Translations under genes and position numbers: made by a program
Notes under the pieces: generated by a model
Database searches by the model: none
The model's input: the letters and a program-made list of their open reading frames with translations, nothing else
What the model was told of the DNA's origin: nothing
In this document: one piece after another, positions 6,676 through 61,130 of the stretch
Layout: each line of letters starts with the position of its first letter
How positions within the stretch are numbered: the stretch's first letter is position 1
Origin: Psilocybe cubensis
Lineage: Eukaryota
Reading direction: 5' to 3'
NCBI GenBank assembly: GCA_017499595.2
Contig: CM039000.1
Span: 1,178,001-1,242,000 of the forward strand
DNA length: 64,000 nt

Positions 6676-6748
6676 GGGGGCATAGCTCAGTTGGGAGAGC
6701 AGTAGACTGAAGTTCTAAAGGTCCCGCGTTCGATCCGCGGTGCCCCCA
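6676..6748 (+). tRNA. tRNA-Phe(GAA), intronless (copy 1)
   Basis: Acceptor stem GGGGGCA/TGCCCCC, D-arm GCTC/GAGC, anticodon loop CTGAAGT, T-loop TTCGATC, followed by a TTTTT Pol III terminator. Confidence 0.97.
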
Positions 6749-6893: not shown

Positions 6894-8236
6894 CTATGCT
6901 ATCGTGTACTTTCCGTAGTTTTTCTCCGGATCGAATACCTGGTTAAAGTATTAGACAAAGAGGTATGTAGGCAAGGGTGATTAACTCACCTCCCAGCGCG
7001 ACGCAGGGAAAATATGTTTATTCCTTTGGTAATAGCTTCGCTCGACGACCTTGCCGGCGTGCGATTCGTCCTTTTCCTTTGTCGCGTCAGCCAGTAGACG
7101 CACGTCGTCGTGGACGTCAAAGTTGAATAAAGGACCTGATTTGCCACGGGCTTTGTTGACGATGAAGTCGTAGAATGTGTAGTGCTGAAGAGGATGGGAG
7201 GTTAGAATGTGTGTGATACATGATTGGGTTGTGGGATGTTACGAACGTGTGGTATGATTAGGTCCTCCTGCGGTTTTTTAGATATAGTATTGGGGATGTG
7301 AGAGAGTTAGAGCTTACCTTTACATACATAAGATTGTCGACGCTTACGCCACGAAGTTCTGGGAATTGGGCGCGGCATTTCTCGAGGAAGGTTGCGATAT
7401 CGTCGCCCTTCTTGCACTGTTGACAATTTCAATTTAGACTACCCATAGAAGACGCAACAACAGCATCATCAAAAAAAAAAAAAAAAAAAAAACGCACCTG
7501 GACACTCTTCCTATGCCCGCTTCCGTCCCAGTATGAGTACACAATCTCGATATCCTCTTTCTTCATTGCGTCCTGCTTCGCGAGCCATTCGAGACGCAGC
7601 CGCTCGCGTTCTTTGCGCTCGGCTTCTTCGCGTTCGCGGTCTGGGAGGAAGGATGTGTCGACGTTTGGGTTCTTTTTCAGTCTGCTGCGTTTAGGGGCGG
7701 GTTGGTCGGCGGTGTCGTCCTGGGCTTCGTCGCTGTTCGCCTTGGGCTCGCCGGACACGTCCTCGCCCTCCTCGTCGTCCATGGCGAAAGATAACTTTGA
7801 CTTGGCGGTTTTCTTGCGCTTCTTCGCTTTCTTTGCTTCATCTCTAAACAGATCCTCCACATCCTATAAGCCATCCATCCTTTCTTCACATAGAGGTATA
7901 AAAGGGAGGGGAGGGAGGAAGGGAAAGGGGAAGGGGATAAAGTATAACGGGGAAAACATACTTGAGGTCATTCGATTTGGCCGCCTCGCGCGCCTTGGCC
8001 TCTTCAAGCTCCTTGCGCATCTGCTGAAAATCCTCGAGCTTGACGAGGCCGACGGTGCTGTTCTTGAGTGTATCCTCCATCGAGTCGTTCTGCCCGACGA
8101 AGCGGTTGGCGGAGGGACGAGCCTTTTCGGTCTCGTTTATGAGCGACTGCTTTTGCCGCTCGTATTCCTCGCGCATTTGCATGCGCTGTTTGGCGAAGGC
8201 TTCTTCGCGCCAGTTGTCGGGTTTGTTTGTGGACAT
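6894..8236 (-). CDS. XAP5: XAP5/FAM50 family nuclear protein
   Basis: [60 protein letters not shown] and [13 protein letters not shown] motifs across exons. Confidence 0.93.
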
Positions 8237-8469
8237 GGTGGGTACTAGACCTGGAGGTGGGTTGGGATTTGGGATGTGGGTTGGGGGTGTGGATGGAGAT
8301 GGAGATGGAGATGGAAACAAAGTTGCTGTGCCCTCATGCCCGGTGCCGGCAGGTGCGAGCTGAGTTTTGTCGGAGGTTTAATTCTTGACCCTTTCCACAC
8401 CCGTGATCCTGGCCTTCCTTGAAATAATTTAACAACCCCGTCAACGTTGTCCGGCGTCGAGCGAGCGCA

Positions 8470-9065
8470 ATGGTGCATATCCTAGGCATCAACCTTCCAG
8501 ATAACCAGGTCGCCAGGGTAAGTCGTCCCGCACCACACCCTCTCTCCCCCAGCAAAAAAGTGGCCGTTTTTTTCTGACGCAAATGCACACCCGAACCTAG
8601 TTCGCCCTGACGAAGATATTCGGCGTCGGGCACCATACCGCGCACCGCATCTGCGCACGACTGCAAGTCCACGACCGATGCCGCGTGCGCGACCTCTCGC
8701 CGTTCCAAGTGACATCCCTCGCGTCGTTCCTGTCCTCACCTAGCACCGCCCCGGCACTCCCGCGCTACCCGCTCGCGCGCGCGGACTATGTGCCCCCCTC
8801 ACCCACGAGTGTGTCGACGCAGGAGCTCCAGGCGCGGTTCATGGAGCTGCATAAGGCGAAAGAGGCCAAGGCTAGCTCGGACCCGTTGAGGAATTTGAGG
8901 ATCGAGTCGGAGTTGAGGAGGGAGATTAGGGAGAATATTGGGCATCAGAGGATGATTGGGAGTTATGTGGGTAGGAGGCATGCGATGCATTTGCCGGTTA
9001 GGGGACAGAATACGCAGAATAATGCGAAGACGGCGAAGAAGCTCAATAGGCTCGACAGGTATTAG
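8470..9065 (+). CDS. SWS2: Mitochondrial ribosomal protein S13 (uS13m)
   Basis: MVHILGINLPDNQVAR / FALTKIFGVGHHTAHRICAR...IGSYVGRRHAMHLPVRGQNTQNNAKTA; one intron at 8518-8600. Confidence 0.93.
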
Positions 9066-9354
9066 TTGGTGGAGGAGGAGGAGGAGGTGGTGGTGGTGGT
9101 TTTTGGGTAGATGGTGCTTCGCTGTTGTGTGCTATTGCTATACTACAGGAATGCATAGACTCGCTGCATTCCCTCTTAATACTTTTCTCTCTCTCAAAAA
9201 GACTCTGTATATCGTTTGTAAAATTCGCAGAGAGAACTGCCGCCTCGGGCAAAATGTGAATCAGGGCCGTGACATCACGCGTTCTACCAGTACTGCATCT
9301 TTGCAACTTGATCGCAAACCACAACACAATCCCAACCCCAATACGCGAAGCTCA

Positions 9355-10305
<951 letters not shown>

Positions 10306-11068
10306 CTGGGGATTATACTGGAGTTTGCTGTTTGGAGTTTGGTGTTTGGTGTTTTGAGTTTGGGGATCGAGTGGAATTTGGATCGTTGGCATTTTTTTTT
10401 TGTACTAAATAATATAATTTCCTTCCAGTTCAGACGAGTTCAGATGCTGTTCCTTTTTTTTTATGTTTTACTATATGTTTTTGTTTTTTTGCATTTTGCA
10501 CACACCCTTCAACCACACCCACACACACATACAACACCTCGTGCAATTGTATTTGATTAAAAATGAATAACACTACATATACTTCATGGCTGTTCGTTTT
10601 TTCGCCTTTATGATTTTCTTGGATGAAGTGAATGAAGGAGTTGACTTGCGATCAAACTCAGTTCCAAGTGATCGACCTGGACCTGCTGCTGCTGCTGCCT
10701 AAATTAGACACCAAATTACTTTTCTCTTCTCTTCCTGCCTCCATCCCCTCCGCCCATCCATACCACCTGCTTACCACCTTCATCTCTTCATCTCTCCATC
10801 TCATTCTCTTTTTGGATTTTAGACCTGAGCGCGAGCTTCAGGACACACCACCACCACCAACTAAAATTTAGTAAAAAGTCTCTGTACTCGAATCTCGGTT
10901 TCGATTGTACACATCTGCAGACTACACCCTCCCCTCACACACTCACACACTTCGATTTTTCATTGATCACGCGAAAAAGAAAAGACAGTACGAGTTGTAC
11001 TTGGATATTTGAACGGACGGGACACTTGGGAAAGGATAGAAAAGAAAGGGTAAACGTTAACGATAACG

Positions 11069-13343
11069 ATGTCACGACCGGAACTACAGGCGCCCCCAGA
11101 AATCGTGCGTGTCCTGTTTTTTTTGCCCTTGTGATGTTACCAACTATTGTATTTGTCTTTGCCCTGCCTGTTCTTACCTTGCACTTGTCTTTGCCATACC
11201 ATACCATATCCTCGTCCTCGTCCACATCCTCATCTTCATGTCGCTTTCTCTCTCCTTTACCGGCCACCATGACCCTCAACCTCTGCCGCTCACTCTGCAC
11301 TCTGCACTCTTCACTCTGCATTCGCTATCTTCCGTTCTGGCCCTGCTCGTGTGTGCGGCGATCGTCCTCGTCCTCGTCCTCGTCCTCGTGGCTCGTGTTC
11401 GTGGTGTAGTATTACGGCGATGCGGAAGCGAAGAAGTATACTTCCAAGTACGTTTTTCTATTTCGTATTTTCTTTGTGTGTTTTTTTTGGTTTTTTGGTT
11501 CCCTACTTTTTTTTTTGGGTGGGTTGGGTTGGGGTGGATGGGTTGGGTCTGAGGCTATGGCTGAAGCTGAGGCGAGTTTTGTACGTGGATGTGGATGTGG
11601 GCTTTGATGTTGTTTTTGGGATGGGATGGGTATGGTGTGGTGTGTTATGTGTTATATCGCGCCGTGAGGAGTGAGGATAGGATGAAGAAGATAGAGTGAT
11701 CTTTCTATCTCACTCTCGATCCTCGATCCACCCATCTATCTATCTATCTATCTACTCGATGCAAAACACCGTCCTTCCATCCACTCATCCACTCTTCCTC
11801 ACAGCACCCGCAACCAACAAATCCAAGCAGACATGACATACCGCGCCCTCGAACTCCTCAACCTCCCGCCCGGCCAACCCGCGTTCTTATTAGACATTGG
11901 ATGTGGCTCGGGCCTTTCGGGCGAGATTTTGGATGAGGAGGGGTATTTGTGGGCGGGGGTCGATGTTGCGCCTAGTATGTTGGGTGAGTTTTTTTTGTGG
12001 GTTTTGATTTTTTTGTGGTTTTTTTGTGGTGGTTTTTGGTGGTTTTTGGAGGTTTTTTGGGGGGGTTTTTTGGGGGTTTTTTGGAGGGGTGTTTTGGAGG
12101 GTTTTTGGAGGTTTTTTTGGAGGGGTGTTTTGTTTTGTGGGTTTTTTGGAGGGTGTTTTGGAGGGGTTTTTTGGAGGGTTTTTTGGAGGGTTTTTTTGGA
12201 GGGTTTTTTGGAGGATGCAAGAAGCAAGATGGAGTGTATAATTTTTATTTTTGACGCTCGAGTTCGAGATCTTGCCAATCTTTTCTCTCTTTCTTTCTTT
12301 CATTCTTTCCTTTCCTTTTTTTTGCTTACTTGTTTTTCGATTCTTTCCATCTCTGACGGATCTGATACTGATATATATATTTTTTTATCTTTTTTATTTT
12401 GATTTGGAACGAAAAGAGGTGGCGCTTGAGCGAGAAGTCGAAGGTGATCTGTTCCTGCAAGATATAGGACAAGGATTCGGGTTCAGACCTGGTAGCTTCG
12501 ACGGTGCAATCAGGTTCGTCCTCCCTCGCACTCACTCTAAAAAACCAAAACCAAAACCAAAACCAAAACCAACCAACCCCTCCCTCCCCCCTCTTTCCCT
12601 CTTCACACACACACACACACAGCATATCCGTAATCCAATGGCTCCTCAACGCCGAAACATCCCACCCAACCTCCTCACCCCCGCACCGCCTCCAGCGCTT
12701 CTTCACAACTCTCCACTCATCCCTCCGCTCGCCCTCCCGCGCGGTATTGCAATTTTACCCGAGCAGTGATGAGCAGGTGCAGATGATTGCGGGGGTGGCG
12801 CGGAAGGCGGGGTTTGGGGGCGGGGTGGTGGTTGATTATCCGAATTCGAGGAGGGCGAGGAAGGTGTTTTTGTGTTTGTTTGTTGGGGGTGGTGGGGGTG
12901 GGGGGAGTGGGAGTGGGCAGGGAGGGGGGAAAGGGGAGGAGGAGCTGCCGAAGGGCTTGGAGGGAGAGGAGGAGGAGAGTGCGCGGGTGAGGTTTGAGAG
13001 GAGACGTGAGAGGGAACGTGCAAAGGCGAAAGGAGGGAAGAGGAAGGCGGTTAAAGATCGTGATTGGATTTTGAAGAAGAAAGAGGTGGGTGCTTGTTTT
13101 CTTGGATTTTTCGTTTCTTTTTCTCGTTTCTTCGTTTGTTTTTTTGTTTTGTTTTTTTTTTTTTTGTTTTTGGCTTTTTTTGGCTTTTTTTTCCTAATGG
13201 TGTCTCTGACTGACTGATCATTTACTTTTTATCCCTCCCTCCTTTTTTTTCGGACGGGTGAATAGTTGTATAGGAGAAGAGGCAAAGAGGGCGTCCCGCA
13301 CGATTCAAAGTTCACAGGAAGGAAGCGCAAGTCGTTTTTCTGA
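11069..13343 (+). CDS. BUD23: 18S rRNA m7G methyltransferase Bud23/WBSCR22
   Basis: MSRPELQAPPEI / YYGDAEAKKYTS / LLDIGCGSGLSGEIL / DIGQGFGFRPGSFDGAIS / AVLQFYP...AGFGGGVVVDYPNS / DSKFTGRKRKSFF*. Introns are enlarged by repeats. Confidence 0.96.
11990..12213 (+). repeat. Degenerate (T4-6GGAGGG)n G/T minisatellite in BUD23 intron 3
   Basis: Repeated TTTTTGGAGGG-like units with essentially no C, inside intron 11984-12416. Confidence 0.9.
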
Positions 13344-13392
13344 GTATGAGATATGAGATCGCGTCGGGCGTCGCGAGTTGGGGTTTATACAT

Positions 13393-13480
13393 TGTCGCAG
13401 TGTCGCAGTATCGCAGTATCGCGGTGTCACAGTATCGCAGTATCGCAGTATCGCAGTATCGCAATATCGCAGTGTCGCAG
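13393..13480 (+). repeat. Octamer tandem repeat (TRTCGCAG)x11
   Basis: Eleven contiguous 8-nt units (tgtcgcag/tatcgcag with single variants), 50 nt after the BUD23 stop. Confidence 0.92.
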
Positions 13481-13922
13481 TGTATGTCTCAAGCTTCAAG
13501 AATTAATATCAGCGCCTTCATTCTTATTTTTCTGGTATAGGAGGATGAGGATGAGGATGAGGATGAGCGTGGTCGTGGTCGTGGTCGATGGTAAAGTCAA
13601 TGGAACGGCGAAGGTAACACATGTGCATAGAGAGTCAGAGACATAGAGACATACAAACTCTTTTTTTTTTTTTTTTTTTCATATTTCTTTTTTCCATGTT
13701 TCTTTTTTGGTTGAGCGGTTGAGTGGTGAGAAGGATGAGTGGATGTTGATAGTGCGAAGAGGTATGTATGTGTTATATGAGTATGTGAGTATGTGAGTAT
13801 GTGTGTATGTGTACTTTTCCCCTCGCCCTCCCCCTCCTTCTCCTCCCCATCCCTCAATCCCCAATACCCAACCCAACCCCCTCCCCTCCCCTCATCTAAA
13901 CAACCCCCCCACACGCGCACCC

Positions 13923-15593
13923 TCACCTAAACAACCCCCCCACCCCCTCAACCGCCCCCCGCGGATCCTCAGCATGCAAGATAAAAAAGCCCTGGAGAGC
14001 AGCCATGCTCACGCGCCGGCCTGCGTCCATCTCGGATTGGATTGTGTGTGCGAGGGATTTGGAGAGGGATGCGATGTCGAGGTCGAGGTCCGGGGATGTG
14101 GGTGGGGGTGATTCCGTTGATGGCGTCGACGGGGACGTTGTCGCTGAGGACGTAGAACCAGAACCAGCACCAGCACCATAAAACCGCTCGAAAAGCACAC
14201 ACGCCTGCGCCGGCACCGCGTCGTCGATGAGCACGCCCATATCCACGCGGCCGGGTCTGACGAGCGCGGGGTCGAGCCGGGCAAAGTGGTTGGTGGTCAT
14301 GAAGACGAGGCGGGCGGATGCGGACGAGGCGACGCCGTCGAGTGCGTTGAGGAGGCCGGAGAATGTTATTGATGATTGGTAGCTGTGTCAGGGAAGGGGT
14401 TAGTGAGTGAGGGGGAGTGAGGGGGAGAAAAGAAAGAAGGACGCACCCGTCTTCAGTCGTCTGGGCGCGGCGGTTGAACGCGGCGTCGACGTCCTCGATG
14501 AGGACGAAGCTGCGCTCGGGGGCGTTGGCGAGGAGGTGGAAGAGTTTGTCGTCGGTGAGGCCGCGCTCGGAGAGGTTGAGGACGCAGATGTCGTAGCTTA
14601 GTTCGCCGGCGAGGGATTGGATGAAGGAGGTTTTGCCGGAGCCTGGGGGGCCGTGGAGGAGGTAGCCGCGGCGGTAGGGGATGCCTGTGTGTGTGTGGGT
14701 TAGTTTTCAAGGGAGGAGGGGAGGGGAAGGCGTACCGCGGTCTGCGTACCACTCTCGACGACTCAGAAAAGTGCGCAGGTCTCTCTCGATCCCCTCTGCG
14801 ACGCCCGGCGCGAGGACAACGCTCTTTAAAGGGCGCTTCGCGCGCGGCAGGCCAAACGGGCGCCACTCGGTGCCCCAGGCAGTATGCACCACCAACCGCC
14901 CCTCCTGGCCCTTCATCGCCGCATCGCGCGCGTCAGCGAGGAGAAGAGGGAAGACGGCGCGCGCGGGGGAGAGCGCGGTGAGTGTGAGTGTCTCCCAGGG
15001 CTGGCCGGACATGAGCGCCTGCGCGCGCGCGTCGCGTTCGCGGGAGAGACGCATCCAGTGCCCGGCGTAGTGGATGTAGTGTGTGCCCGGACCGGCGACG
15101 AGGCGGAATGCGGCGGAGGAGGAGCCGTTGGGGTGCGTTTGGAGGCTGGTTTCGACGGAGAGGTTGTGTGAGCGGGTGAGCGTGGATGTGAGCCGGCGGG
15201 TGAGCGGGTTTAGGGAGGGTGAAGGTGGGTGGTGGGCGAGCCAGGCGAGGAGCCACTCGTAGGATTTGTCTTTGTTGTTTAGTTCTAGTGTCACGAGCAT
15301 CCGCCGTTGGAGCGCTGCTGAGCCTACCACCAGCGATTTGCGTAGGATCGAGAGGCCGACGCCCAGGCCCTGTGTCTGTTAGATATTGTGATAGAGAGCT
15401 GGGAAGAGGCGTACCATGAGGCCAAAGCCGGCTTGGAAGTAGGGACTGCACTTGATGAGAGCTCAGCGGGAGTACACGCGCACTGGGCAAAAACGCACTT
15501 GTCATTGAGAAACGACTGGATAAATGAGGAGGATTCCGCCGGCAAGGGCAGCGCTACTTGTGCAGCCGCCGGGACATGTTCGGGGTGCTGCAT
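13923..15593 (-). CDS. BCS1: Mitochondrial AAA chaperone Bcs1
   Basis: [62 protein letters not shown] (Walker A), MTTNH...[21 protein letters not shown]. Confidence 0.96.
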
Positions 15594-15791
15594 AAAGTCT
15601 CTGTCAAAATATAAAAACACACAAAATTTGGCTTGTAGATTTGAAAAGAAACATCTCGACAATTCGACATCACGAGTCGCGCGTTTCCGCCACTCAAATT
15701 AGGTAATTAAAAACGCGTCTTTGAACTTCTTTTCTTCCTCCTCTTTTTTCTGCTTCTTTCTCCTTTCTGTGACACTCTCAAACCACACACG

Positions 15792-18700
15792 ATGAGGCGT
15801 ACGCCCAACTCGTTAAATCTCGACGACGCACTGTCCATCCTCGGCCTCGAGGTCCGTGTCACCTTTGTTCAACTCGTTGCTTATTACCATTCGCTGTCTG
15901 TTTCTCACCTTTTTTCTAATTCTAACAGAAAGGCACATCGCTCGAAGCTGAAGTCGTCAAAACGGCGTATAAACAGGTCTGTTCCTCTTCCCTTCTTCCC
16001 TCTTTCAACTAGCACTAACACCCCTCTCCCCTCACACCCTTACACCCCCTCCCCCCTCGCACACAAAAAAACATAAACACATAAACACAAAGATGTCCCT
16101 CCGCACACACCCAGACAAAAACCCCGACAACCCAGACGCAACAGCCGCATTCCAGCGCGTAGGCGAGGCGTACCGCGTTCTCGTCGAGCATGTCGAGCGG
16201 TCCTCCTCTGCTTCCTCCTTTTCCCAGTTCTCCCAGTTCTCTTCGTCCCAGTTCTCTTCGTCCCAGTTCTCTTCCTCTTCCTTTTCGCAGTTCACCTCTT
16301 CATTTCCACACCCATTTTTCAGCGGGTTCGGGTCCGGGTTCGGGTTCGCGCCCTTCGCTGGAGGACCCGGACACGCGCATGGGGGACATGGACGAGAGCA
16401 TAAATGCGAACACTGCTCCGAAATGTCAGCTGACGAGGCGTTTGCATATGAGTTTTATGGCTACAGCTACGGTGATGATGATGATGAGGATTTTTATGGG
16501 TTTTATGGTGACGAGTTTGAATATGACGAGGATGAAGAGGATTATGAGGATGATGATGAGGAGGATGAGGGGGAGGGGGAGGATTATGAGGAGGGGGAAA
16601 GGGAGGGGCGTGGAAGTGGAAATGGAAGTGGGGGATATGCAAAGGGAAATGCAAATGGAAGTGCAAAGGGAAATGGAAATGGAAATGCAAAGGGAAATGC
16701 AAAGGGAAAGGGAAAGGGGAAGGGAAAAGAGAGGTACTTTGAAGAGGACGAGGACGAGGACGACGAGGATTTGGCGTTTTATATGTGAGTTTTTTTGCTC
16801 TCTTTTTCTTTTCGTTTTTTTGTCTTTGGGTTTTCTTTGCTTTTCGTTGTTTTTCTTTTTTTTTGTTTTCTTTTTCTATGGCTTGGTTTTTTCTTTGGTT
16901 TTTTTTTGTGGTTTGTGGGTTTGTGGGTTTGTGGTTTTGCGCTTTTTTTTTTTTTTTTTTTTTGGGGGGGGGGGGGGTTTGGTTTGTGGTTTTTTGTCTG
17001 CCGTTTCGCGGTTTGGCATTTTGGTCGGTGGTTTTGCAGTTTTGCGGTTTTGCGGTTTGGTCGGTGTCTGTGTTTGGTTTATGTTTGGTTTATGTTTGGT
17101 GTTTGGTGCTGCCATTTCGAATGGGGATGCGGATGCGGATGGGAAAGTGGATAAGCGCCCATCACGTCTGATGTCTGATGGTCGTGTGAGCGGTTGTGCG
17201 TGTATGTGTATGCACACGCCAACGGCTTCCTTCCTTCCTTGCTTCCTTTCCTTTCCTTTCCTTTCCTTTCCTTTCCTTTCATTTCTTTACGTATCAATAT
17301 CTTAACATGGGTATCAATATCTTAACATGGAACCATCATCATCTAACATTTTTTATACAGGCACATATTTGAACGGATTATGGCTGGGAAGATGTACCAT
17401 TCCGGATGGCGCTCCGGCGGCAGCGGGGGCGGTGGTGGTGGTGGTGGTGGTGGTGGGATGCCACCGAGGGGGAGGGGAAACCCGAAGGGAAATCCACATC
17501 GTAATCGTAAGTATCCATTATTATTATCATTATCATTATCACCATTCTTTTTTCTTCTTTCATTCTTTTTGGTTTTGGTTTTATATGGTCAACAACTAAT
17601 ACCCTGATACATACACTCAAACAGACACCAAACCCCCCACCCAAAACCCCAACCCCAACCAAAATCAAACAAAAGCCCAAAAACAATCCAAAGCCGAACA
17701 ACAATCCTACGAAGCACACCTTAAACGCACACGCGCAGAACAGGAAGCAGCTGAAGAGAGGAGACGGTGGGAGGATCAGGTGCGGAGGGAGAGGAGGGTG
17801 CGGGGGAGGGAGGAAGGTGGGTTTTAGGTTTTTTTCTGGGTTTTTGTGTTTTTGGTTGGGATTTTTTGGGGATTTTTTGGGGGGTTTTTTGGGAGGGGGG
17901 GGGGTTTGTGTTTTTGGTTGGGTTTTGGTTTTTTTTGGGAGGGTTTTTTGTGATTTTTTTTTGGGTTGGATTTTTGGCGCTTGGGCGCTTAAGCTTAGCG
18001 CTAAGCCTTGGACGGAGGTTTTGTGGGTTGGTGACTCGGTGATATCATAATGCTATTTTTAGAGTTGACTTGGGGGATTTTTTGTTTCGTGGTCGTGTTT
18101 TGCACTTGTGCCTACAGTTGCAGTTGCAGTTGCAGTTGCAGTTGCGCTTGCTTGCGAGTTTCTCCGTTCTTTTTTCGTCTTTCGTTCGGGGTGGAGTTTG
18201 GTTTTATCTCCCACCCTCTTTATCTCTCTTTCGTTTTATTTTTTTTTCAAACAAAAATCTAACCTACCTCTCTTTCCCCACCCCCTCTCCCCACCCACCC
18301 CTCCTCCCCCAACACACCCATCTACACAGCACACCTCGCCTCCCAAACCCGCCAAAAAGCCAAATCCAAATCCGAATCCAAAAAAACGCAACGGGCACAC
18401 GCGGACGCGGAGCGGCGCGCGGTGGAGGAGGAGAGGGCGAGGGTGGAGAGGGAGAGGAAGCAGGGTGTGAGGAGTTGGGTTTTTGAGTGTGCGAGGATGT
18501 GTGGGGGGGCGGAGGCGGGTGGGGGAGGGGGTGGTGGGGATGCGAAGGGGAATGTGATGGGAAAAGATAGTGGGAAGGGGAATGCAGGTGCGGGAGGAGG
18601 AGGGAAGAAGAAGGACGCAAAAGGAAATGGAAAAAGCAAAAGCAAGGGCGGGAACGTACCCACTAGTGGAAGGGATGCGGCGGTTGAAGAGGTGAAACGC

Positions 18701-20373
18701 GGGGTGTGGGAGGATGGTGTGGATGTGTGTGGGGGCGAGTTTTTGGACCGTCGTGTGCGTGCTAACGCGCGAGTGAATGTGGATGGGGATGCGAGTGCGA
18801 GTGCGGGTGGGGATGCGAATGGGGATGGAGAGAAGAAGGAGAATGCCAATGGAGCGAAGGAGAAGGAGGATGTGGATGAGAAAGAGACGCTTCTCCATAT
18901 CGCTGCGAAACGTGGCGATTTGGAGTTGGTTAGGTGGTTAGATGCGCATAGTACGTTCTTTTTTCCTCCTCCTCGATTTCGCGTGATTAGATAACTAACT
19001 AACTAACTTGCCCAACTTACCCAATTTACCCATCCCAATCCAATCCAACTCGATCCAACCCATCCCAATCCAACCCATCCCAACTTATCGGATTTACCCA
19101 ACCCAACCCGACCTAAACACACACACGAAACCCAACAAAAAAAACAGGTGCAGACCCCGAAGAACGCGACACGTGCGGACACACGCCGTTCCATGCCGCG
19201 CTGCGGTGTGGGCGCGTGGATGTAGCGCTGTATTTTGTGGAGGAGGCGTATCCTGTCGGTGAGCGGGATTCGAGGGGGGTTTATGTGCTTGGTTCTGCGG
19301 TGGATGAGGAGGAGGAGGAGGAGGAGGAGGAGGAGGAGGAAGAGGATAAAGAAGAAGAGGGAGAGCAGGAGAGGGAGGGGGATGGGAATGGGGAGGGGGA
19401 TGGGAATGGGAATGGAAGGGAGGAGCAAAGCAAGGATACGTTGTTAACTCTTGCGATTGGATCAGGCGAGCCGGAGCTCGTGTGGCTCGTTCTGGAGAAG
19501 ATGGGGCCGTTCAGGCCTGAGAGGGAGGAGGTGAGGCGGATGTATGTGGATTTGTGTGTGCGTGCTGGGGGTGAGAATGGGTATGAGAGTAAGGACAAGG
19601 ATAAGGATATGAAGGAGGGGGAGAAGGAGAAGTGGGGTGATATTGTGAAGCTTTTGGAGAAGTATTCGGGTGGTGCTGGAGAGGACGAGGAACAGGAACA
19701 GGAAGAGCAGGAGGAGGAGGAGAGTGTGCCAATACCGATGCCTGGTTCAGTGCCGTTGTTTGCCCAAGGAAAGGGAAAGGCGAATAAGCACCACCAACAA
19801 CAACAGCATCATCAACAACAGCAGCAGCAGCAAAAGCATGAGAAGAGGCCGGCGAAAGTGGATACGCAGGCGCAGGCGCGGCAGAACCAAAACCAAAACC
19901 AGAACCAGAACAAATATAAAGGCAAGAATCAGAAGAGTGCGGTGCCTTTGTCGCCTACGGGTACGTCTTCGACGACGACGGCGGCGGCGGCGTTGGCGTC
20001 GGGTGGGCAGAGGGGGTATCGGCAGCAGCAGCAGCAGCAGCAGAACCAGAATCGAGGTTCGAATCAGAGGCAAAGCAGGGATTACCAGAATCAGAATCAG
20101 AATAATTCTCAGAATCAGAACCAGAGAGAAGGACAGACGCAAAGGCAGAGGGGGTACCAGCATAACCAGACACAAAACCAGACACAGTACGCTGCGCAGG
20201 AGCGAGTGCAGGAGCCGGTACATGGACATGGACAAGCACAGGGACAAGCACGGGGGAAGGGGTATTATAGAGGTAGAGGGAGGGGCGGGGGAAGGGGGAG
20301 AGGGCGAGGTGGTGCGCAGCCGGGTCCGGGTCATATTCATACTCATGGTGCGCAGGGACGCGATGTTTATTAA
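15792..20373 (+). CDS. J-domain (DnaJ) plus ankyrin-repeat protein with expanded low-complexity tracts
   Basis: J-domain [34 protein letters not shown] (HPD motif); ankyrin repeats ETLLHIAAKRGDLELVRWL and GHTPFHAALRCGRVDVALYF. Frame followed by hand across the GT-AG junctions stays open. Confidence 0.88.
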
Positions 20374-21241
20374 GGCCTGAGGATGAGGCTTGGAATTTGG
20401 GTGCCAGGGTGGTCATGGCAAGCAAGTCTGCCTACGTTGTGGTTGTGGGAAGTACTTTGTATCGCCAACCTTGAAGATTGAGCTTGCGGACTTGGACTTG
20501 GACGCGGACGCGGAACCCTTTGCGTTTTTCGTCGGTTGCCGCGATTTCGACCTGGGTCTGGGTTTGAGAGTTTGAGAGCTTGCGGTTGCAGTTGATTGAT
20601 TTGGGTTCGGATCTGGGCGCGGGCTGGTGTTTTGTTTGCATCTGCATCTGCATCTGCGTTTGCATCTGCGTTTGTGTTTGTGTTTGTTGCTGTGGGTCCT
20701 TTTGCCCTTTTGATCTTTCCAGTCCTTCGTCCTTCGTCTTTTCCAATCCTTTCTTGCCTCGGGCGCGGTCGTCTTCGTCTTCGTGCAGTCTTTATACTGT
20801 CATGGGCTTTTTGCCTTGTTATTTCGCTTGTTTGAAAAAAATCAAGTTTGTTCTGTCGCTTTGCTTCGCCTGCATCCATCCACCTATCCGTCCATTCATT
20901 CATTCATTCATTCATTCTGCTTTCGCTTTTGCTTTCGCACTTTTATCATCTGTATATATTAATAGTTCCGTGAAACGTATCATTGCATTATATTTTTTCG
21001 TGTTGTCTGTCTATGTTAGTACTATAGTCTTGTTTTTTTGTTTTTGGAGTGTGGTTTTTAATTCAGGTGGTGGTGTTTTTAAAAGCTAATATTTTAATTT
21101 CAATGTACATACTGTTTTTTGTTTTTTGCATCTGTGGTGTTATCTTTTTTTTATGGTGTCGTATAGTTTTTTTGTTCATTTTCATAATCGTTATCGTCGT
21201 CGTCGTTATCATTTATTTTATTTTACTTCACTCGTATATTC

Positions 21242-21837
21242 TAGTGTTGCCGCCAGAGCGCAGTCACTCTGCAGTGACTGTGACTGCACTCTGTTTTTTC
21301 ATTCTCCGACACACTTCACAGCGCAACAAAGTCGCAGTGAAGTGCTCTGCAAAGTGTGCCGTAAATTGCAGTGTTGGATAATCTAGACTAAATATGGAAG
21401 TATTACATGCATTTTTGTCGAATACATGAGAATGTTCGGGATACTTACTATATTTGGAGGATATTTATTGCACATGACCTTTATCTATCTAGATAAGATT
21501 GCAATAAAATATTCAACAGTGCACGTGGTCCAGGTCCCTTTCATCTTGTCGTCGACACACATTTCTGCTTGGTTTTCGCTGGATTTGTTGCGAAAAGTCA
21601 AAAAAATTGCTACATTGAAGTGCCTTGGACTATTAGTACACTGACTGAGCAAATATATATAGACAAAATGACTTGCAAAGCGTCAACCTTTCGTCGACCA
21701 TTTTATGAGGTCGAGACGGTGAATGACATCACAAACACTTCACAGCACTTCACAGGGACTGTGATCACTGTGAAGCGTGTCACAGTCGCCCAAAAATGGC
21801 TTCACTGTCACTGCACTGCACTCTGGCGGCAACACTA
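21242..21837. mobile_element. Non-autonomous hAT-type DNA transposon (MITE), 596 bp
   Basis: TIR TAGTGTTGCCGCCAGAG(C/T)GCAGT at both ends (17 bp perfect, 23 bp with one mismatch). Identical 8-bp TSD GTATATTC at 21234-21241 and 21838-21845. Subterminal CACTTCACAG/CAGTGA repeats; no transposase ORF. Confidence 0.92.
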
Positions 21838-23603
21838 GTATATTCTTGGTATCATTACAAGACAGTTCAATTGAATTTTAGTTCAAATTCTACTTTTCTC
21901 CCTTGTTGTATAATCATAATCATAATCATTTCATAAATGATACATAATACATGCGTTTTCTTTCATTTATATTGTTCGCAGCCGCACTGTAGTACAGGTA
22001 CTGTACATAGCCGTGTTGTATATCACTCTTTATCTATTAAATTAAAATAGTATTAATTCCGAGTCATTGAAGATGATGTGCTGATTTGTTCATTTGTTCA
22101 TGTTCATGTTCATACGGTTCATTTTAGACTCGGGTGTGCAATTATATTGCAGCCTCAGGTTTTTTTGGGACATTTCGGTGACATGGACATGTTTTTCTTT
22201 TAGTTTTCTTTTAGTTTTCTTTTAGTTAAGGTTTGGTTTGGTTTCATTGTCGGTTAAGAGTAGCTTAGAAGTGTTACAGGTACAGGTATGTCGTTTGCTA
22301 TTTACGGTTATAGTTGTTGTGAGTTGTGAGTTGTGAGTCCGAGTCCTCAGTCGTGAATCGGGGAGGACATGAGGTTTGCTGGTAGTGGTATAGAGTCCGG
22401 AGTGATATTATCATTCTTCTATGTTGGTAATGTACTACTGTCTGTTGTTCAAATTGTAGGTAGAGTAGAATTTGTATATTCCTGCTGTGCTGCTGCCGCG
22501 ATGCTTGACAAAGAGCGTGCTTCGTCCCATCGTCCCATTGGACCCTTGCCCTTGCCCTTTCCCTGAACATCCTTTTATTTTAATTGAATTCAGTTTGAAA
22601 CGGACATGAGGTCTCTGCTAGGGGGGTCATGACATCAAGGCAAGTAATGTCCCATGTAAAATGAATGAATGAATGAAGTTTGACATTCAACTTGATGACA
22701 ATGCGGAGAACTTGAGTTTGAGTTTGAGTTTGATCGCCTTCATCATATCATCACTATGAGAGGAAATGAGGTGAGGTTGAAGGGACCGAGGGAGTCATGA
22801 CAGAATGTTATTTTTGTTTTTAATTTGAATTTTTAATTTTTGAATGTTTTAGGGTTTTGCTTTTGCCCTTTTTTGCGGTTCAATTGTAGTGAGTTTCTCC
22901 CATGGGTCTGGTCTTGCTCAACCCCGTCCCTGGTCAGAGTAGGGATTAGAAATTAGAGATTGGATGCTACGATGCATAATGCACCGTGCACTGTGCACCA
23001 AGAACCAGAGTCAGTCAGAGTTAGGATTCGTAATTGTGAATCCCTGCGTCATAGCTGACGACAAATCTGCCACCGTTGAAGTGACGGTACAATGACATCG
23101 CTCTTATCTTCCTCCGAGTCCAAGTTGTTATCTGGTTTTCGGTTTATCTGGCATATTAGACCCGATTTTGAAAGATGAAGGATCTTCGCTGATCCAGAAG
23201 AGCGCAAGAGCCATCTTCTGCCCTTCTGCTCGTTTTCGCGTTTGCACTGGCCTCCCCGTGGGGTCCAGGTGAAGGGTCCTGCACATCGTTCCTTCCGTTT
23301 ACCATTCAGTGCAATGTGCATTGACCCCATTTTTTCCAAAGTCGCCGGGATCGCCGGGACGCCGGGCCGGCGAGTGTGACTTCCATATTGGGACGTGGGG
23401 AGGCTGGAGCCCTCTGGAGGAAACACGCGCAAATACTAGGGACCCTCCAACCTGAACCGTGACTAGACTCGCGTTCGTCCATTCCAATTTAACGAACCTC
23501 TCTCTCTCTCTTGTAAAGTCAAGAAAGAAAAGAAAAGAAAAGAAAAGGCGACCTGACCAGTGACCAGCGAGCGCTTGGCTTGTAGACGTTCATTACATTC
23601 AAT

Positions 23604-25383: not shown

Positions 25384-25801
25384 ATGGGTGATGAGACTGG
25401 CGGGGATGGAGGGAAGGGAAGGTGAAGTGTAAGGGAAAATTAAGATTTAGCATGTACAAGGTTGAGATTCCGGCGTTGTTTGTGTTTTCTTTATTATTCT
25501 GTAATAGTTATATTATTCAAGTGGGAGTCAGGTGTGCCAGTAAGGCAGGATCATCGATGTGAATTTGATGCATCGTACCGTGTGACATATGTGACGACAT
25601 GCTAACTGACGGAGCTTGATCTGCAAATCTGGCCCTTGACATTGCCACCATAGTCCCGGTAATCTGACTGGCTCTTGTCCACAACCACCACCACAGAGCC
25701 CTCCGTCCACGCTACCAACAACCACGACCCTCTCATAACAATCCTCTCTTCCCCTATATCTAGGGTCTCCTACAGCCGCCAAGGCTGCTAGTCTGTCTGG
25801 T

Positions 25802-48029: not shown

Positions 48030-48102
48030 GGGGGCATAGCTCAGTTGGGAGAGCAGTAGACTGAAGTTCTAAAGGTCCCGCGTTCGATCCGCGGTGCCCC
48101 CA
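48030..48102 (+). tRNA. tRNA-Phe(GAA) copy 2
   Basis: 73 nt identical to copy 1, followed by TTTTTT. Confidence 0.97.
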
Positions 48103-48262: not shown

Positions 48263-48335
48263 GGGGGCATAGCTCAGTTGGGAGAGCAGTAGACTGAAGT
48301 TCTAAAGGTCCCGCGTTCGATCCGCGGTGCCCCCA
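48263..48335 (+). tRNA. tRNA-Phe(GAA) copy 3
   Basis: 73 nt identical to copy 1, followed by TCTTTTTGCA. Confidence 0.97.
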
Positions 48336-55490: not shown

Positions 55491-55563
55491 GGGGGCATAG
55501 CTCAGTTGGGAGAGCAGTAGACTGAAGTTCTAAAGGTCCCGCGTTCGATCCGCGGTGCCCCCA
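55491..55563 (+). tRNA. tRNA-Phe(GAA) copy 4
   Basis: 73 nt identical to copy 1, followed by TCCTTTTGCA. Confidence 0.97.
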
Positions 55564-60999: not shown

Positions 61000-61130
61000 G
61001 TTTGTTTTAATGACGTTAATAATTATTATAGACATTTCAACTTTAAATTATGCTCCATGATCGAAGAACCTCGACAGACAAAAACTTGCTTGCTGTAGAA
61101 CCGAAATATTACAGACGCTTGGTCAAAAAA

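What the first reader, a model, noticed from the sequence alone, without database searches (positions are those of the whole stretch)
7850..20950. Kilobase-scale oscillating C/A versus G/T strand skew phased to exon-intron structure
Seen: the + strand alternates between C/A(C/T)-rich and G/T(G/A)-rich blocks of a few hundred bp. C-to-G switches fall mostly inside exons: ~8830 (S13), ~11900 and ~12770 (BUD23), ~14030 and ~14930 (BCS1), ~16400, ~17750, ~18410 and ~19200 (J-ankyrin). G-to-C switches fall in introns or intergenic DNA (~11700, ~12520, ~13815, ~17590, ~18250, ~18980). The rule holds for + and - strand genes and reaches synonymous sites: BUD23 exon 12623-13086 uses C-ending codons in its first half and G/T-ending codons in its second. 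The 32-64 kb genes show nothing like it. Inference: a local strand-asymmetric mutation or repair process with many fixed centres, such as recurrent DSB resection and fill-in at hotspots, dense origins, or R-loop/G4 formation. The alternative is selection for fold-back of C-rich and G-rich halves in pre-mRNA. I know of no named system that explains it.
Basis: partly seen in the sequence, partly recalled or inferred. Interest (0 to 1): 0.8.

Follow-up and report, generated by a model that had tools for sequence, protein, structure and literature searches.

The report
Exon-phased strand-skew blocks in fungal genes
In a 13-kb stretch of six ordinary fungal housekeeping genes the DNA switches every few hundred bases between G/T-rich and C/A-rich, even at silent codon positions and in step with exons and introns; the pattern is real and I found no published description of it.

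Summary
Between about 7.85 and 20.95 kb the + strand is built of 27 abrupt blocks (0.1-1.5 kb) that nearly lack C or nearly lack G. The longest C-free run is 245 nt. Independent runs hold the same sequence, and spliced contigs confirm six introns. The skew persists at fourfold sites, where G goes with T and C with A. It is phased to exons (circular-shift P 0.005-0.03; 10 of 10 long exons rise from C to G).

The same domain has raised silent-site GC, about 5 tandem-repeat rows per kb (0-0.36 elsewhere), 2-8-fold longer introns, and many G4 motifs.

Five of the genes are syntenic in a distant fungal clade from metagenomes. Those orthologs carry a weaker copy of the same silent-site landscape, but their flanking genes do not.

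RNA fold-back is not supported: folding energy equals that of shuffles. Sense-transcription coupling fits poorly.

My best reading (0.4) is a DNA-level, strand-asymmetric mutation or repair bias anchored to gene architecture. It runs hot in this unstable domain, and splicing constraints fix part of its sign. The double-strand-break-hotspot version fits the polarity but not the block shape. I found no published description in seven searches. Interest 0.7.

The parts
7850..20950 (.). Domain of intense block-wise G-versus-C exclusivity. It holds 27 switches, high GC4, about 5 tandem-repeat rows per kb and 1.76 G4 motifs per kb. The left edge lies at about 7.6-7.9 kb inside the XAP5 gene. The right edge lies at an AT-rich stretch before a MITE.
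6894..8236 (-). XAP5-family gene with 5 exons in my model. Exon 1 and the 5' region are C-rich in sense (G-block 7890-8376 on the + strand).
   Evidence: Pfam XAP5 E 4.7e-25 on exon 6990-7184. The model has an open frame. The exon 1/2 junction is inferred with a weak GTTTTC donor. Orthologs are present in relatives.
8470..9065 (+). Ribosomal protein S13 family gene. It has 2 exons, an 83-nt intron, and a C>G switch at 8806 inside exon 2.
   Evidence: Pfam Ribosomal_S13; intron seen as a GT..AG joint in spliced contigs
9355..10305 (+). TRAPP (Bet3-like) subunit gene with 4 exons. It is inverted relative to the other four genes when compared with the relatives.
   Evidence: Pfam TRAPP; model, with introns inferred; orientation
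11069..13343 (+). BUD23/WBSCR22-type methyltransferase gene. It has 6 exons and introns of 305, 357, 433, 109 and 180 nt. C>G switches lie at 11880 and 12760 inside exons 3 and 5.
   Evidence: Pfam WBS_methylT; three long introns seen as GT..AG joints; model; the relatives' gene spans about 1.14 kb, and I read 5 introns of about 50-65 nt at the same places by eye in L009
13923..15593 (-). BCS1 AAA-ATPase gene with 5 exons and short introns. Its mRNA is C-rich for most of its length and G-rich at its 3' end (13812-14033).
   Evidence: Pfam BCS1_N and AAA; two introns seen as CT..AC joints; model
15792..20373 (+). J-domain protein with long low-complexity stretches and a weak ankyrin match. It has 7 exons and introns of 77, 116, 576, 118, 513 and 197 nt. 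C>G switches lie at 16320, 17732, 18392 and 19197 in exons.
   Evidence: Pfam DnaJ E 1.8e-8; Ank_3 below cut-off. The model is inferred from an open frame and GT..AG ends only. No listed RNA joint supports it.
11973..12217 (+). The longest C-free run (245 nt). It consists of G/T tandem repeats (unit about GGTTTTTTGGAG, 16 copies) at the 5' part of BUD23 intron 3.
   Evidence: held unchanged in contigs of another study
17837..17977 (+). C-free run of 141 nt. It consists of G/T repeats at the 5' part of J-domain gene intron 5 and is 74% like the BUD23 intron 3 repeats over 80 nt.
12529..12621 (+). G-free run of 93 nt that fills BUD23 intron 4 up to the 3' splice-site AG. It includes (AAAACC)5.
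18234..18328 (+). G-free run of 95 nt that ends at the 3' splice-site AG of J-domain gene intron 5.
12507..12760 (+). C-block (GC skew -0.70). It covers all of intron 4 plus the first 138 nt of BUD23 exon 5, which encode conserved residues with C- and A-ending codons.
12761..13811 (+). G-block (GC skew +0.47). It covers the rest of BUD23 exon 5 (G- and T-ending codons, with a Gly/Glu-rich insert), intron 5, exon 6 and the 3' flank.
13812..14033 (+). C-block (GC skew -0.67) over the 3' end of BCS1 and its flank. Together with the block before it, both convergent genes end G-rich in sense.
15588..16320 (+). C-block (GC skew -0.41). It covers the J-domain gene promoter, exons 1-2, introns 1-2 and the first 228 nt of exon 3.
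17490..17732 (+). C-block (GC skew -0.62). It covers intron 4 and the first 108 nt of exon 5 of the J-domain gene.
18202..18392 (+). C-block (GC skew -0.84). It covers the last 128 nt of intron 5 and the first 63 nt of exon 6.
18945..19197 (+). C-block (GC skew -0.53). It covers intron 6 and the first 50 nt of exon 7. A 1.5-kb G-block (19198-20696) follows.

Best explanation
This is a roughly 13-kb chromosomal domain in which every weakly constrained site has been pushed toward G+T or toward C+A on a given strand. That includes introns, spacers, third codon positions and replaceable residues. The result is abrupt blocks of 0.1-1.5 kb.

The sign of each block follows a template anchored to gene architecture. 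In sense orientation the DNA is C-rich at gene starts, in the last 200 nt or less of introns, and in the first 50-230 nt of exons. It is G-rich in exon ends, in the first part of long introns, and at gene ends. A weaker copy of this template exists in the orthologous five-gene cluster of a distant fungal clade, so the template is old.

In this lineage and this domain the template has been amplified, close to saturation in introns. Alongside it came a rise in silent-site GC, a large excess of tandem repeats, 2-8-fold intron expansion and low-complexity inserts in the proteins.

I read this as the accumulated footprint of a strand-asymmetric mutation or repair process, in which one strand is repeatedly left single-stranded and resynthesised with errors, as happens around recombination-initiating breaks. 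The process would be tied to gene architecture and unusually active here. Splicing constraints, namely AG-free zones before 3' splice sites of the + strand genes, would fix part of the sign.

Shown: the blocks, their reach to silent sites, the keto/amino character, the phasing, the co-occurring features, and the weak conserved copy. Inferred: that the cause is mutational, that single-strand exposure is the chemistry, and that recombination is the trigger.
For: 1. Free sites are keto/amino. At fourfold sites C-blocks carry C and A, and G-blocks carry G and T. The same holds at residues identical to the ortholog: GC skew -0.34, +0.43 and +0.56, and TA skew -0.27, -0.14 and +0.48. The correlation of GC skew with TA skew is +0.56 at third positions and +0.41 in non-coding DNA, but -0.28 at positions 1+2. 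This is the pattern expected from C>T plus A>G on one strand. It also matches the C>N and A>N excess on the exposed strand beside human meiotic breaks (PMC7615360, passages read).

2. The polarity fits break geometry. All 5 G>C switches in intergenic DNA have G/T to the left and C/A to the right, whether the spacer is divergent, convergent or tandem.

3. There is a regional shift independent of orientation. Sense fourfold skew in the window is -0.44 (XAP5, - strand), -0.39 (BCS1, -), +0.16, +0.36 and +0.13 (three + genes). The relatives show -0.15..-0.39, -0.18..+0.04, -0.14..-0.21, -0.13..+0.25 and -0.12..-0.36 (plus one short locus at +0.12). So four of five genes moved clearly toward + strand G.

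4. Hallmarks of a hot, unstable domain co-occur.
- GC4 is 0.60-0.84, against 0.36-0.57 (one 0.70) in 13 control ORFs and 0.46-0.68 in relatives.
- Tandem Repeats Finder gives 4.96 rows per kb covering 15.2% of bases. The rest of the window gives 0-0.36 per kb and four relatives' loci give 0-0.10.
- BUD23 introns are 109-433 nt, against about 50-65 nt at the same five positions in L009 (positions and lengths read by eye).
- Other strains' depth falls to 0-9 over 16.7-18.0 kb, and haplotypes are mosaic (0 to 5% divergence per 1-2 kb piece).

5. It is not a general splicing need. A neighbouring + gene with five RNA-supported introns has G/T-rich or mixed introns.

6. The template is old.
- In windows of 30 aligned codons, third-position skew correlates between the window and relatives (r 0.30-0.48).
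- The partial r given positions 1+2 is 0.48, 0.39, 0.38 and 0.13.
- Exon-internal rise is +0.18 in the window (10 of 10 exons) and +0.09 in the relatives' cluster (26 of 32 ORFs, p 9e-5, loci not independent).
- The rise is +0.02 in 29 window ORFs outside the region and +0.01 in 36 flank ORFs of relatives.

7. AG-free zones before the 3' splice site have a median of 108 nt in the 15 introns of + genes. The 5 control introns have a median of 33 nt and the 8 introns of - genes 32 nt.
Against: - Blocks are square: both switch types reach about +-0.5 within 25 bp. Break-centred exposure should decay with distance.
- In long G-blocks (12761-13811, 16321-17212, 19198-20696) the skew is strongest next to the C>G switch.
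- Thirteen centres in 13 kb would have overlapping resection tracts, which predicts a uniform net sign between neighbours.
- C-blocks are much shorter than G-blocks from 11.4 kb on (about 210 versus 730 nt, my means). Break geometry is symmetric.
- There is no sequence-context signature of a deaminase or of methylation: CpG o/e is 1.09-1.14 and TC is 0.90.
- The orientation-independence argument rests on two - strand genes. One of them (XAP5) lies within the relatives' range.
- Six window-specific differences in one G-block show no trend toward G/T (my reading of the 40 of 648 listed rows). Unpolarised differences to another strain are 191 toward G/T against 164 toward C/A (my sums).
- All six genes end G-rich in sense. 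Five clearly begin C-rich in sense, and the sixth begins at a block border. That is equally what a transcript-level rule predicts.
- Some C-blocks are C/T-rich, not C/A-rich (10390-11387, 17213-17358, 20697-20950).
- No recombination, break, R-loop or expression map was available.
- No whole genome is held, so the claim that the domain is unusually hot is untested.
Confidence: 0.4

Rival explanations
1. RNA-level selection on splicing and exon definition. Once the introns had expanded, splice sites needed stronger compositional marking. That meant a G-poor, AG-free, unstructured zone across each 3' splice site and a G-rich zone across each 5' splice site (G-runs, purine-rich enhancers). Synonymous sites and free residues were recruited to provide it.
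For: - Blocks straddle splice sites in transcript sense. 9-10 of 15 3' splice sites of + genes lie in C-blocks, which occupy 35% of the region (my count).
- AG-free zones before the 3' splice site have a median of 108 nt, against 33 nt in controls. Four introns are AG-free throughout.
- G-free runs of 93 and 95 nt end exactly at the acceptor AG.
- AG o/e is 0.80 in C-blocks.
- All six genes end G-rich in sense. Five clearly begin C-rich in sense and the sixth begins at a block border.
- The drop in skew across introns and the rise inside exons also appear, more weakly, in the relatives' orthologs.
- Selection against spurious AG near acceptors is published (PMC10946897, search listing and abstract start only).
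Against: - The first exon AG comes at a median of +18 nt, so AG avoidance does not explain the 50-230 nt of G-poor exon starts.
- A neighbouring gene with five confirmed introns shows no such marking: D is positive at 1 of 5 introns (my arithmetic).
- BET3 introns 2 and 3 are G/T-rich throughout.
- It does not explain the skew across a 1.2-kb exon or in spacers, the rise in GC4, the tandem-repeat excess, or the opposite net skew of + and - strand genes.
- BCS1 has only short introns, yet its silent sites are strongly skewed.
Confidence: 0.25
2. Self-amplifying low complexity (slippage, templated or dislocation mutagenesis, 'cryptic simplicity'). A local excess of one base type, imposed by the protein sequence, is copied into neighbouring free sites and spreads into adjacent introns. 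Blocks therefore straddle splice sites without any link to strands or RNA.
For: - Tandem repeats cover 15.2% of the domain, against 0-1% elsewhere in the window and 0-0.4% in relatives.
- Repeats lie in introns, spacers and coding DNA.
- Similar G/T repeats lie in four long introns of two genes.
- Third-position skew follows the skew of positions 1+2 in the same 30 codons (r 0.53, slope 0.74). The 127 control windows give r 0.00. Relatives give r 0.42-0.56.
- It explains abrupt borders, and it explains why introns take the sign of the adjoining exon end.
Against: - Free sites are keto/amino while positions 1+2 are purine/pyrimidine (r +0.56 versus -0.28). In G-blocks fourfold sites gain T, not A. 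Copying neighbours would not do that.
- The correlation of third-position skew between species survives control for positions 1+2 in 3 of 4 relatives.
- Slippage makes indels, not substitutions at isolated silent sites of conserved residues.
- It does not explain why 10 of 10 long exons rise in the same direction.
Confidence: 0.15
3. Transcription-coupled feedback through R-loops or G-quadruplexes. A G-rich non-template strand favours R-loops, which expose that strand to deamination. It then becomes still richer in G and T, giving bistable blocks.
For: - G4 motifs number 23 in the domain (1.76 per kb) against 0-0.18 per kb elsewhere.
- G-blocks are on the non-template strand in the four + genes.
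- Positive feedback would give sharp borders.
- GC skew favours R-loops (review PMC10030826, passages read).
Against: - The two - strand genes are shifted the wrong way: their non-template strand is C-rich.
- Gene 5' ends are C-rich in sense. That is the opposite of R-loop-prone promoters.
- It gives no cause for the G-free C-blocks in + genes.
- No RNA or R-loop map was available.
Confidence: 0.12
4. Artefact of assembly, of chemical conversion of the DNA, or of a chimeric contig.
For: Blocks free of C or of G resemble converted DNA at first sight. Depth of other strains is low at 16.7-18.0 kb.
Against: - 11 runs of 4 studies hold the stretch or part of it.
- Contigs of another study match 10980-12533 with 3 differences and 11951-12533 with none. 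Raw reads of a further study cover all 30 bins.
- Reading frames are intact and encode conserved domains.
- Six introns are spliced at GT..AG in spliced contigs.
- The XAP5 gene spans the left edge of the domain. Five genes are syntenic with relatives.
Confidence: 0.01

Closest known systems
[quoted passage not shown] 2021, PMC8256042; sections 5, 10 and 11 and passages read)
   Same: Both show intense, abruptly changing GC and TA skews inside functional coding DNA. The skews are strongest and correlated at third codon positions, with G+T and C+A stretches within 1 kb of each other. Both have effects on amino-acid composition (Gly/Val/Trp versus Pro/Thr/His/Gln). In both the mechanism is unknown and a link to gene conversion is proposed.
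   Different: GRINS are defined as repeats over 500 bp long with more than 80% identity inside bacterial polyketide-synthase clusters, with some seen in amoebae and choanoflagellates. Here the DNA is single-copy, made of nuclear fungal housekeeping genes with introns. The blocks are phased to exons and introns, and no long repeat is present.
Strand-asymmetric mutagenesis beside meiotic double-strand-break hotspots (Hinch et al. 2023, PMC7615360; passages read)
   Same: The polarity matches: the strand that stays single after resection (forward strand to the left, reverse strand to the right) loses C and A. Indels, template switching and tandem-repeat instability occur in the same places.
   Different: In humans this is a mutation-rate signal around short-lived hotspots, with flanks of 1-2 kb and off-centre peaks. 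It leaves no compositional footprint. Here the composition is nearly saturated, the blocks are square and 0.1-1.5 kb long, the putative centres lie about 1 kb apart, and no break map exists.
Splicing-coupled and exon/intron strand asymmetries (Touchon et al. 2004; Zhang et al. 2008; both known to me only through the review PMC10030826, passages read)
   Same: In both, strand composition is tied to splice sites and differs in sign between parts of the transcript.
   Different: The published patterns contrast whole exons with whole introns (introns with T>A and G>C) or concern the immediate intron ends. The review says they do not carry over to yeast. Here the blocks straddle splice sites, flip inside exons, and reach silent sites 50-230 nt into exons.
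Runaway GC-biased evolution in gene clusters (gerbils, PMC7403616; passages read)
   Same: Both are lineage-specific local domains in which silent-site GC rises, all substitution classes rise, and protein sequences are dragged along. That case is attributed to clustered recombination hotspots.
   Different: In that paper 'GC skew' means AT-to-GC bias, not a strand asymmetry. It describes no G-versus-C block structure and no exon phasing.
Single-strand-exposure skew of animal mitochondrial DNA and replication-origin skew jumps (recalled, not read here)
   Same: One strand becomes G+T-rich through C>T and A>G while single-stranded. The effect is visible at fourfold sites whatever the gene orientation.
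   Different: Those patterns have one or two switch points per replicon, or per tens to hundreds of kb. This one has 27 in 13 kb.

Membership tests
GRINS | Mean absolute GC and TA skew above 0.15 in 150-nt windows | tested here: met
   0.38 and 0.29 in 7850-20950, against 0.13-0.18 and 0.14-0.19 elsewhere in the window
GRINS | GC and TA skews correlated, most marked at third codon positions | tested here: met
   r +0.56 at third positions and +0.41 in non-coding DNA, but only +0.14 over all sites and -0.28 at positions 1+2
GRINS | Duplicated region over 500 bp with more than 80% identity to another region of the same cluster | tested here: not met
   The only direct-repeat family of 60 nt or more is an 80-nt G/T low-complexity family at 60-74% identity
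Meiotic break-hotspot strand asymmetry | Exposed-strand polarity: forward strand depleted of C and A to the left of the centre, reverse strand to the right | tested here: inconclusive
   The sign fits if the 13 G>C switches are the centres. The centres themselves are not known.
Meiotic break-hotspot strand asymmetry | Centres coincide with mapped break or recombination-initiation sites | not testable with these tools
   No recombination or break map exists, and no whole genome is held
Meiotic break-hotspot strand asymmetry | Effect graded with distance from the centre over the resection length | tested here: not met
   Blocks are square, at about +-0.5 within 25 bp of both switch types. Long G-blocks are most skewed at their far end.
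Meiotic break-hotspot strand asymmetry | Accompanying indel and tandem-repeat instability, and GC-biased conversion | tested here: met
   Tandem Repeats Finder gives 4.96 rows per kb against 0-0.36. GC4 is 0.60-0.84 against 0.36-0.57, with one control at 0.70.
Transcription-associated strand asymmetry (non-template strand exposure, R-loops) | Sign follows the transcribed strand: the non-template strand gains G and T, strongest downstream of the start | tested here: not met
   The two - strand genes are C-rich on their non-template strand, with sense fourfold skew -0.44 and -0.39. Gene 5' ends are C-rich in sense.
Replication-origin skew jumps | Upward jumps at origins spaced tens of kb or more apart, with gradual decline between them | tested here: not met
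   There are 14 upward and 13 downward jumps in 13.1 kb, and both kinds are abrupt
Splicing-coupled strand asymmetry | Asymmetry anchored at splice sites in transcript sense | tested here: met
   Circular-shift P 0.005-0.03. AG-free zones have a median of 108 nt before 3' splice sites of + genes. Skew drops across introns in the window and in relatives.
Splicing-coupled strand asymmetry | Confined to intron ends, or a whole-exon versus whole-intron contrast | tested here: not met
   Blocks straddle splice sites. 10 of 14 C>G switches are inside exons, 50-230 nt from the acceptor.
Intron-bridging complementary repeats (RNA fold-back; the teleost AC/GT example is recalled) | Register-specific complementary arms that stabilise the fold beyond what composition gives | tested here: not met
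   Of the 25 inverted-repeat pairs listed out of 59, 20 are 70-77% complementary. One is 79% and four short ones (19-23 nt) are 86-89%. They occur in both arrangements. Native MFE z against block and whole shuffles (12 each) is -3.1/-1.8, -1.0/-0.8 and +0.6/+0.1 in three segments.

The most novel reading that the evidence does not exclude
Silent sites, introns and spacers of this conserved five-gene cluster record the positions and strand geometry of recombination-initiating breaks, or of another recurrent single-strand exposure. Those positions have stayed fixed in promoters, terminators and introns since before two distant fungal lineages split. In one lineage the process ran away, nearly saturating introns with G/T-only or C/A-only sequence, recoding exons half by half, expanding introns and rewriting free parts of the proteins. 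This would be the first compositional, exon-phased footprint of break-repair strand asymmetry in a nuclear genome. It would also be a eukaryotic, non-repeat counterpart of GRINS.
Probability: 0.2. Interest if true: 0.85.

Novelty: new variant of a known kind. Interest (0 to 1): 0.7.

Why it matters
Strand-asymmetric mutagenesis near breaks is known as a rate effect in human trios, and GRINS are known as an unexplained bacterial oddity. Neither has a eukaryotic case in which the bias has accumulated to near saturation in single-copy housekeeping genes.

Here the bias flips codon choice inside exons, changes amino acids, lengthens introns several-fold and seeds G-quadruplex and tandem-repeat sequence, yet the genes stay intact and spliced.

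If the cause is mutational, the locus is a natural recorder of where one strand is exposed. That makes the long-term effect of break repair on gene structure testable with existing population data. If the cause is selection on splicing, it would show synonymous sites up to 230 nt into exons being used as a splicing code. Either way it warns that codon-usage and selection tests can be badly misled locally.

Tried and rejected
- Whole genome: none is held, so no genome-wide scan was possible.
- Earlier notes of this scan by place, by sequence and by one word set returned nothing.
- Sequencing runs: no RNA holder listed. One run that the tool guessed to be RNA gave contigs with GT..AG joints. I used those for intron coordinates only.
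- RNA fold-back:
  - Native energy was not lower than that of shuffles in 2 of 3 segments.
  - Inverted repeats are compositional only.
- Deaminase or methylation context: CpG, GpC and TpC observed/expected lie within 0.9-1.14 in blocks.
- Regex intron candidates as a generality test were noisy:
  - 7 candidates in the region gave mean D +0.49.
  - 42 candidates elsewhere in the window gave about +0.02.
  - Six relatives' loci gave -0.10 to +0.12.
  - None of the sets outside the region was significant.
- Site-by-site G/C agreement between the window and relatives at fourfold sites is weak (odds ratio 1.3-1.75, p 0.06-0.2). Only the 30-codon scale shows conservation.
- Replaced residues carry more G-C at positions 1+2 in G-blocks (+0.25 to +0.29) and less in C-blocks (-0.17 to -0.23). 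The blocks were defined on the same sequence, so part of this is circular, and I give it little weight.
- Polarising strain differences: only 40 of 648 rows were listed, which is too few.
- GRINS membership was rejected because there are no repeats.
- Mating-type or other special loci: nothing in the long ORFs suggested one, and I did not pursue it.
- Organism identity was not pursued.
- Literature: seven searches found no description of exon-phased G/T versus C/A blocks in a fungal nuclear genome. Supplements were not consulted.

Full report
**What is there**

Between about 7.85 and 20.95 kb the + strand alternates between stretches that almost lack C and stretches that almost lack G.

- In 200-bp windows the mean absolute GC skew is 0.28, 0.33 and 0.46 in the three 4-kb bins of 8-20 kb. 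It is 0.07-0.19 in the other thirteen bins. It reaches 1.00 at 12000-12199.
- The region holds 33 runs of 40 nt or more free of C (20) or of G (13). The longest are 245 nt (11973-12217) and 141 nt. Shuffles that keep 1-kb composition give 0.5 such runs on average and at most 2 (n = 200). The remaining 50.9 kb of the window holds 9.
- A zig-zag segmentation of the cumulative G-C walk finds 14 C>G and 13 G>C switches in the region.
- Both kinds of switch are abrupt, about +-0.5 within 25 bp, so the pattern is a square wave and not a sawtooth.

**It is not an artefact**

- Eleven runs from four studies hold the stretch or part of it.
- Contigs from a study other than the best holder cover 10980-12533 with 3 differences and 11951-12533 with none. 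That span includes the C-free block.
- Raw reads of a further study cover all 30 bins, thinly over 16.7-18.0 kb.
- Contigs of one run skip GT..AG introns at six places in the region. These are 8518-8600, 11105-11409, 11448-11804, 11984-12416, 14383-14446 and 14685-14735. The long introns of BUD23 are therefore really spliced.

**Genes**

With those joints, open frames and GT..AG ends I built models for six genes. Pfam supports the names.

| Gene | Strand | Coordinates |
|---|---|---|
| XAP5 family | - | 6894-8236 |
| Ribosomal protein S13 family | + | 8470-9065 |
| TRAPP/Bet3 | + | 9355-10305 |
| BUD23-type methyltransferase | + | 11069-13343 |
| BCS1 | - | 13923-15593 |
| J-domain protein with long low-complexity parts | + | 15792-20373 |

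The ankyrin match of the last gene is below Pfam's cut-off. The J-domain gene model and one XAP5 junction are inferred only.

**Phasing and silent sites**

- Ten of 14 C>G switches lie in coding exons. Nine of 13 G>C switches lie outside them, and the other four sit 6-17 nt from an exon edge. Exons make up 52% of the region.
- Circular shifts of the annotation give P = 0.03 for the counts. For a continuous statistic they give z = 3.6 and P = 0.005.
- All 10 exons of 210 nt or more rise from C to G.
- At 1113 fourfold sites the GC skew runs from -0.68 to +0.67 with the skew of neighbouring non-third sites (Spearman 0.33, p 1e-21). A accompanies C, and T accompanies G.
- The same holds at residues identical to the ortholog in relatives, so the effect is not confined to low-complexity inserts.
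- GC and TA skews correlate at +0.56 at third positions and +0.41 in non-coding DNA, but -0.28 at positions 1+2. Free sites are therefore keto versus amino, while constrained sites are purine versus pyrimidine.

**Anatomy in transcript sense**

- All six genes end in a G-rich block in sense. Five clearly begin in a C-rich block, and the BCS1 coding start sits at a block border.
- In the + strand genes, introns of up to about 200 nt are often wholly C-rich. Long introns begin with G/T repeats and end with 130-200 nt of G-poor sequence that runs on for 50-230 nt into the next exon.
- Zones free of AG before the 3' splice site have a median of 108 nt in the 15 introns of + genes. The medians are 33 nt in 5 confirmed introns of a neighbouring gene and 32 nt in 8 introns of the - genes. 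Two G-free runs of 93 and 95 nt end exactly at the acceptor AG.
- A (C-block, G-block) pair is its own reverse complement. The same look on both strands is therefore automatic and cannot by itself separate DNA-level from RNA-level causes.

**What else marks the domain**

- Silent-site GC (GC4) is 0.60-0.84 in the six genes and 0.36-0.57 (one 0.70) in 13 long control ORFs.
- Tandem Repeats Finder gives 65 rows here (4.96 per kb, 15.2% of bases). The rest of the window gives 0-0.36 per kb.
- G4 motifs number 23 (1.76 per kb) against 0-0.18 per kb elsewhere.
- Other strains' depth collapses over 16.7-18.0 kb. Their contigs are mosaic, identical over some 1-2 kb pieces and 2-5% different over others.

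**Relatives**

A metagenome scan with one BCS1 exon found 11 fungal loci at 57-60% amino-acid identity. They are 84-97% alike among themselves, so they count as one clade and one independent comparison.

- The order BCS1-BUD23-BET3-mS13-XAP5 is kept, with BET3 inverted. The J-domain gene and the other window genes are not there.
- These loci have ordinary skew (mean 0.14-0.19) and almost no tandem repeats (0-0.10 rows per kb in the four long loci tested).
- BUD23 spans about 1.14 kb in them. In L009 I read five introns of about 50-65 nt at the same five positions as in the window, by eye from the sequence.
- GC4 is 0.46-0.68.

The intense form is therefore derived in the window's lineage. Against the relatives' baseline, silent sites moved toward G on the window's + strand. 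The shift is clear in three + genes and in BCS1 (-). XAP5 (-) lies within the relatives' range.

A weak copy of the landscape does exist in the relatives.

- In windows of 30 aligned codons, third-position skew correlates between the window and a relative (r 0.30-0.48). After controlling for positions 1+2, r is 0.48, 0.39, 0.38 and 0.13.
- Skew rises inside the orthologous coding stretches: +0.09, 26 of 32 positive, p 9e-5 (loci not independent). It drops across their introns.
- Flank ORFs of the relatives (+0.01, n = 36) and window ORFs outside the domain (+0.02, n = 29) show no rise.
- Third-position skew follows the skew of positions 1+2 in the region (r 0.53) and in the relatives' five genes (r 0.42-0.56). 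It does so more weakly in their flank ORFs (r 0.39, frames unverified), and not at all in the window's control ORFs (r 0.00, n = 127).

**Mechanism**

*RNA fold-back is not supported.* Most inverted repeats are 70-77% complementary and occur in both arrangements. Native folding energy is not lower than that of block-wise or whole shuffles in two of three segments.

*A general splicing requirement is not supported.* The neighbouring gene with five confirmed introns has G/T-rich or mixed introns.

*Sense-transcription coupling fits poorly.* The two - strand genes are C-rich on their non-template strand, and gene 5' ends are C-rich in sense.

*The break-repair model fits the chemistry and polarity.* Three features match what is reported beside human meiotic breaks: the keto/amino pattern at free sites, the polarity at all intergenic G>C switches, and the company of GC rise, repeats and indels. 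There, the strand left single after resection loses C and A, and template switching and tandem-repeat changes abound (PMC7615360, passages read).

*It fails on shape.*
- The blocks are square.
- The skew in long G-blocks is strongest at the far end.
- C-blocks are much shorter than G-blocks from 11.4 kb on.
- Thirteen centres in 13 kb would overlap.
- No deaminase-like context is seen.

*Slippage alone* explains the repeats and the spread of a sign into introns. It does not explain the T that accompanies G at silent sites.

My best reading, at 0.4, is a DNA-level strand-asymmetric mutation or repair bias whose sign is anchored to gene architecture. It is amplified in this unstable, probably recombination-hot domain, and splicing constraints (AG-free acceptor zones) fix part of the sign. 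The chemistry and the trigger are inferred, not shown.

**Comparison with what is known**

- The closest phenomenon is GRINS in bacterial polyketide-synthase genes. These show intense, abrupt, correlated GC/TA skews at third positions with unknown cause (PMC8256042, sections read). The locus fails the defining repeat criterion. It also adds introns and exon phasing.
- Published exon/intron and splicing-coupled asymmetries contrast whole exons with whole introns, or concern intron ends (review PMC10030826, passages read). Here the blocks straddle splice sites.
- Local runaway GC domains (PMC7403616, passages read) share the GC rise and the protein drag, but not the strand blocks.
- Seven literature searches found no description of this pattern. 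Supplements were not seen.

**Verdict**

The feature is a new variant of a known kind (local intense strand skew), with an old, gene-anchored template and a lineage-specific runaway.

Noticed in passing
window 6676-6748, 48030-48102, 48263-48335, 55491-55563 (+); 61130-61204, 62907-62981 (-): Six tRNA-Phe(GAA) genes lie in one 64-kb window. The one at 6676-6748 sits just left of the skewed domain and explains a local doubling of read depth.
   Followed up: no
window 21242-21837: A roughly 600-bp element with terminal inverted repeats and an apparent 8-bp target duplication (GTATATTC), read by eye. Its depth in other runs is about ten times that of its surroundings, and loose ends fall exactly at both borders. 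It looks like a high-copy MITE and sits just right of the skewed domain.
   Followed up: partly
window 9355-10305 versus L002, L006, L009, L011: The TRAPP/Bet3 gene is inverted relative to its four syntenic neighbours when the window is compared with the metagenome relatives.
   Followed up: no
window 11984-12063, 13131-13210, 16889-16968, 17817-17896: Four long introns of two genes carry similar runs of G(2-7)T(5-8) repeats. Two of these runs start right at the 5' splice site and are 74% alike over 80 nt. Whether this is shared descent (an intron-borne element) or convergence of low complexity is open.
   Followed up: no
window 7800-21000, all six frames: The skewed domain holds many long stop-free frames on both strands and in several frames at once. 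Blocks poor in A or in T and G have few stop codons. ORF length is therefore no guide to genes here.
   Followed up: no
window 14083-14169: A contig of the run guessed to be RNA skips 85 nt with CG..GC ends, inside the low-complexity Ser/Thr/Pro part of the last BCS1 exon. This may be a strain indel or an assembly slip in a repeat. It is not a canonical intron.
   Followed up: no
window 16672-18005: Depth of three other strains' data falls to 0-9 over introns 3-5 of the J-domain gene. These repeat-rich introns seem to differ strongly in sequence or length between strains.
   Followed up: no
window 22000-27900 and 40400-41000: Weaker patches of the same kind of skew lie outside the finding. Examples are C-block 23821-24141 (skew -0.50) and G-blocks around 23.5 and 25.0-25.6 kb. 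An ORF at 25739-26542 has GC4 of 0.70.
   Followed up: partly
window 7470-7493: An A run of about 23 nt on the + strand lies in XAP5 intron 2, about where the skewed domain begins. Other runs' contigs break there.
   Followed up: no
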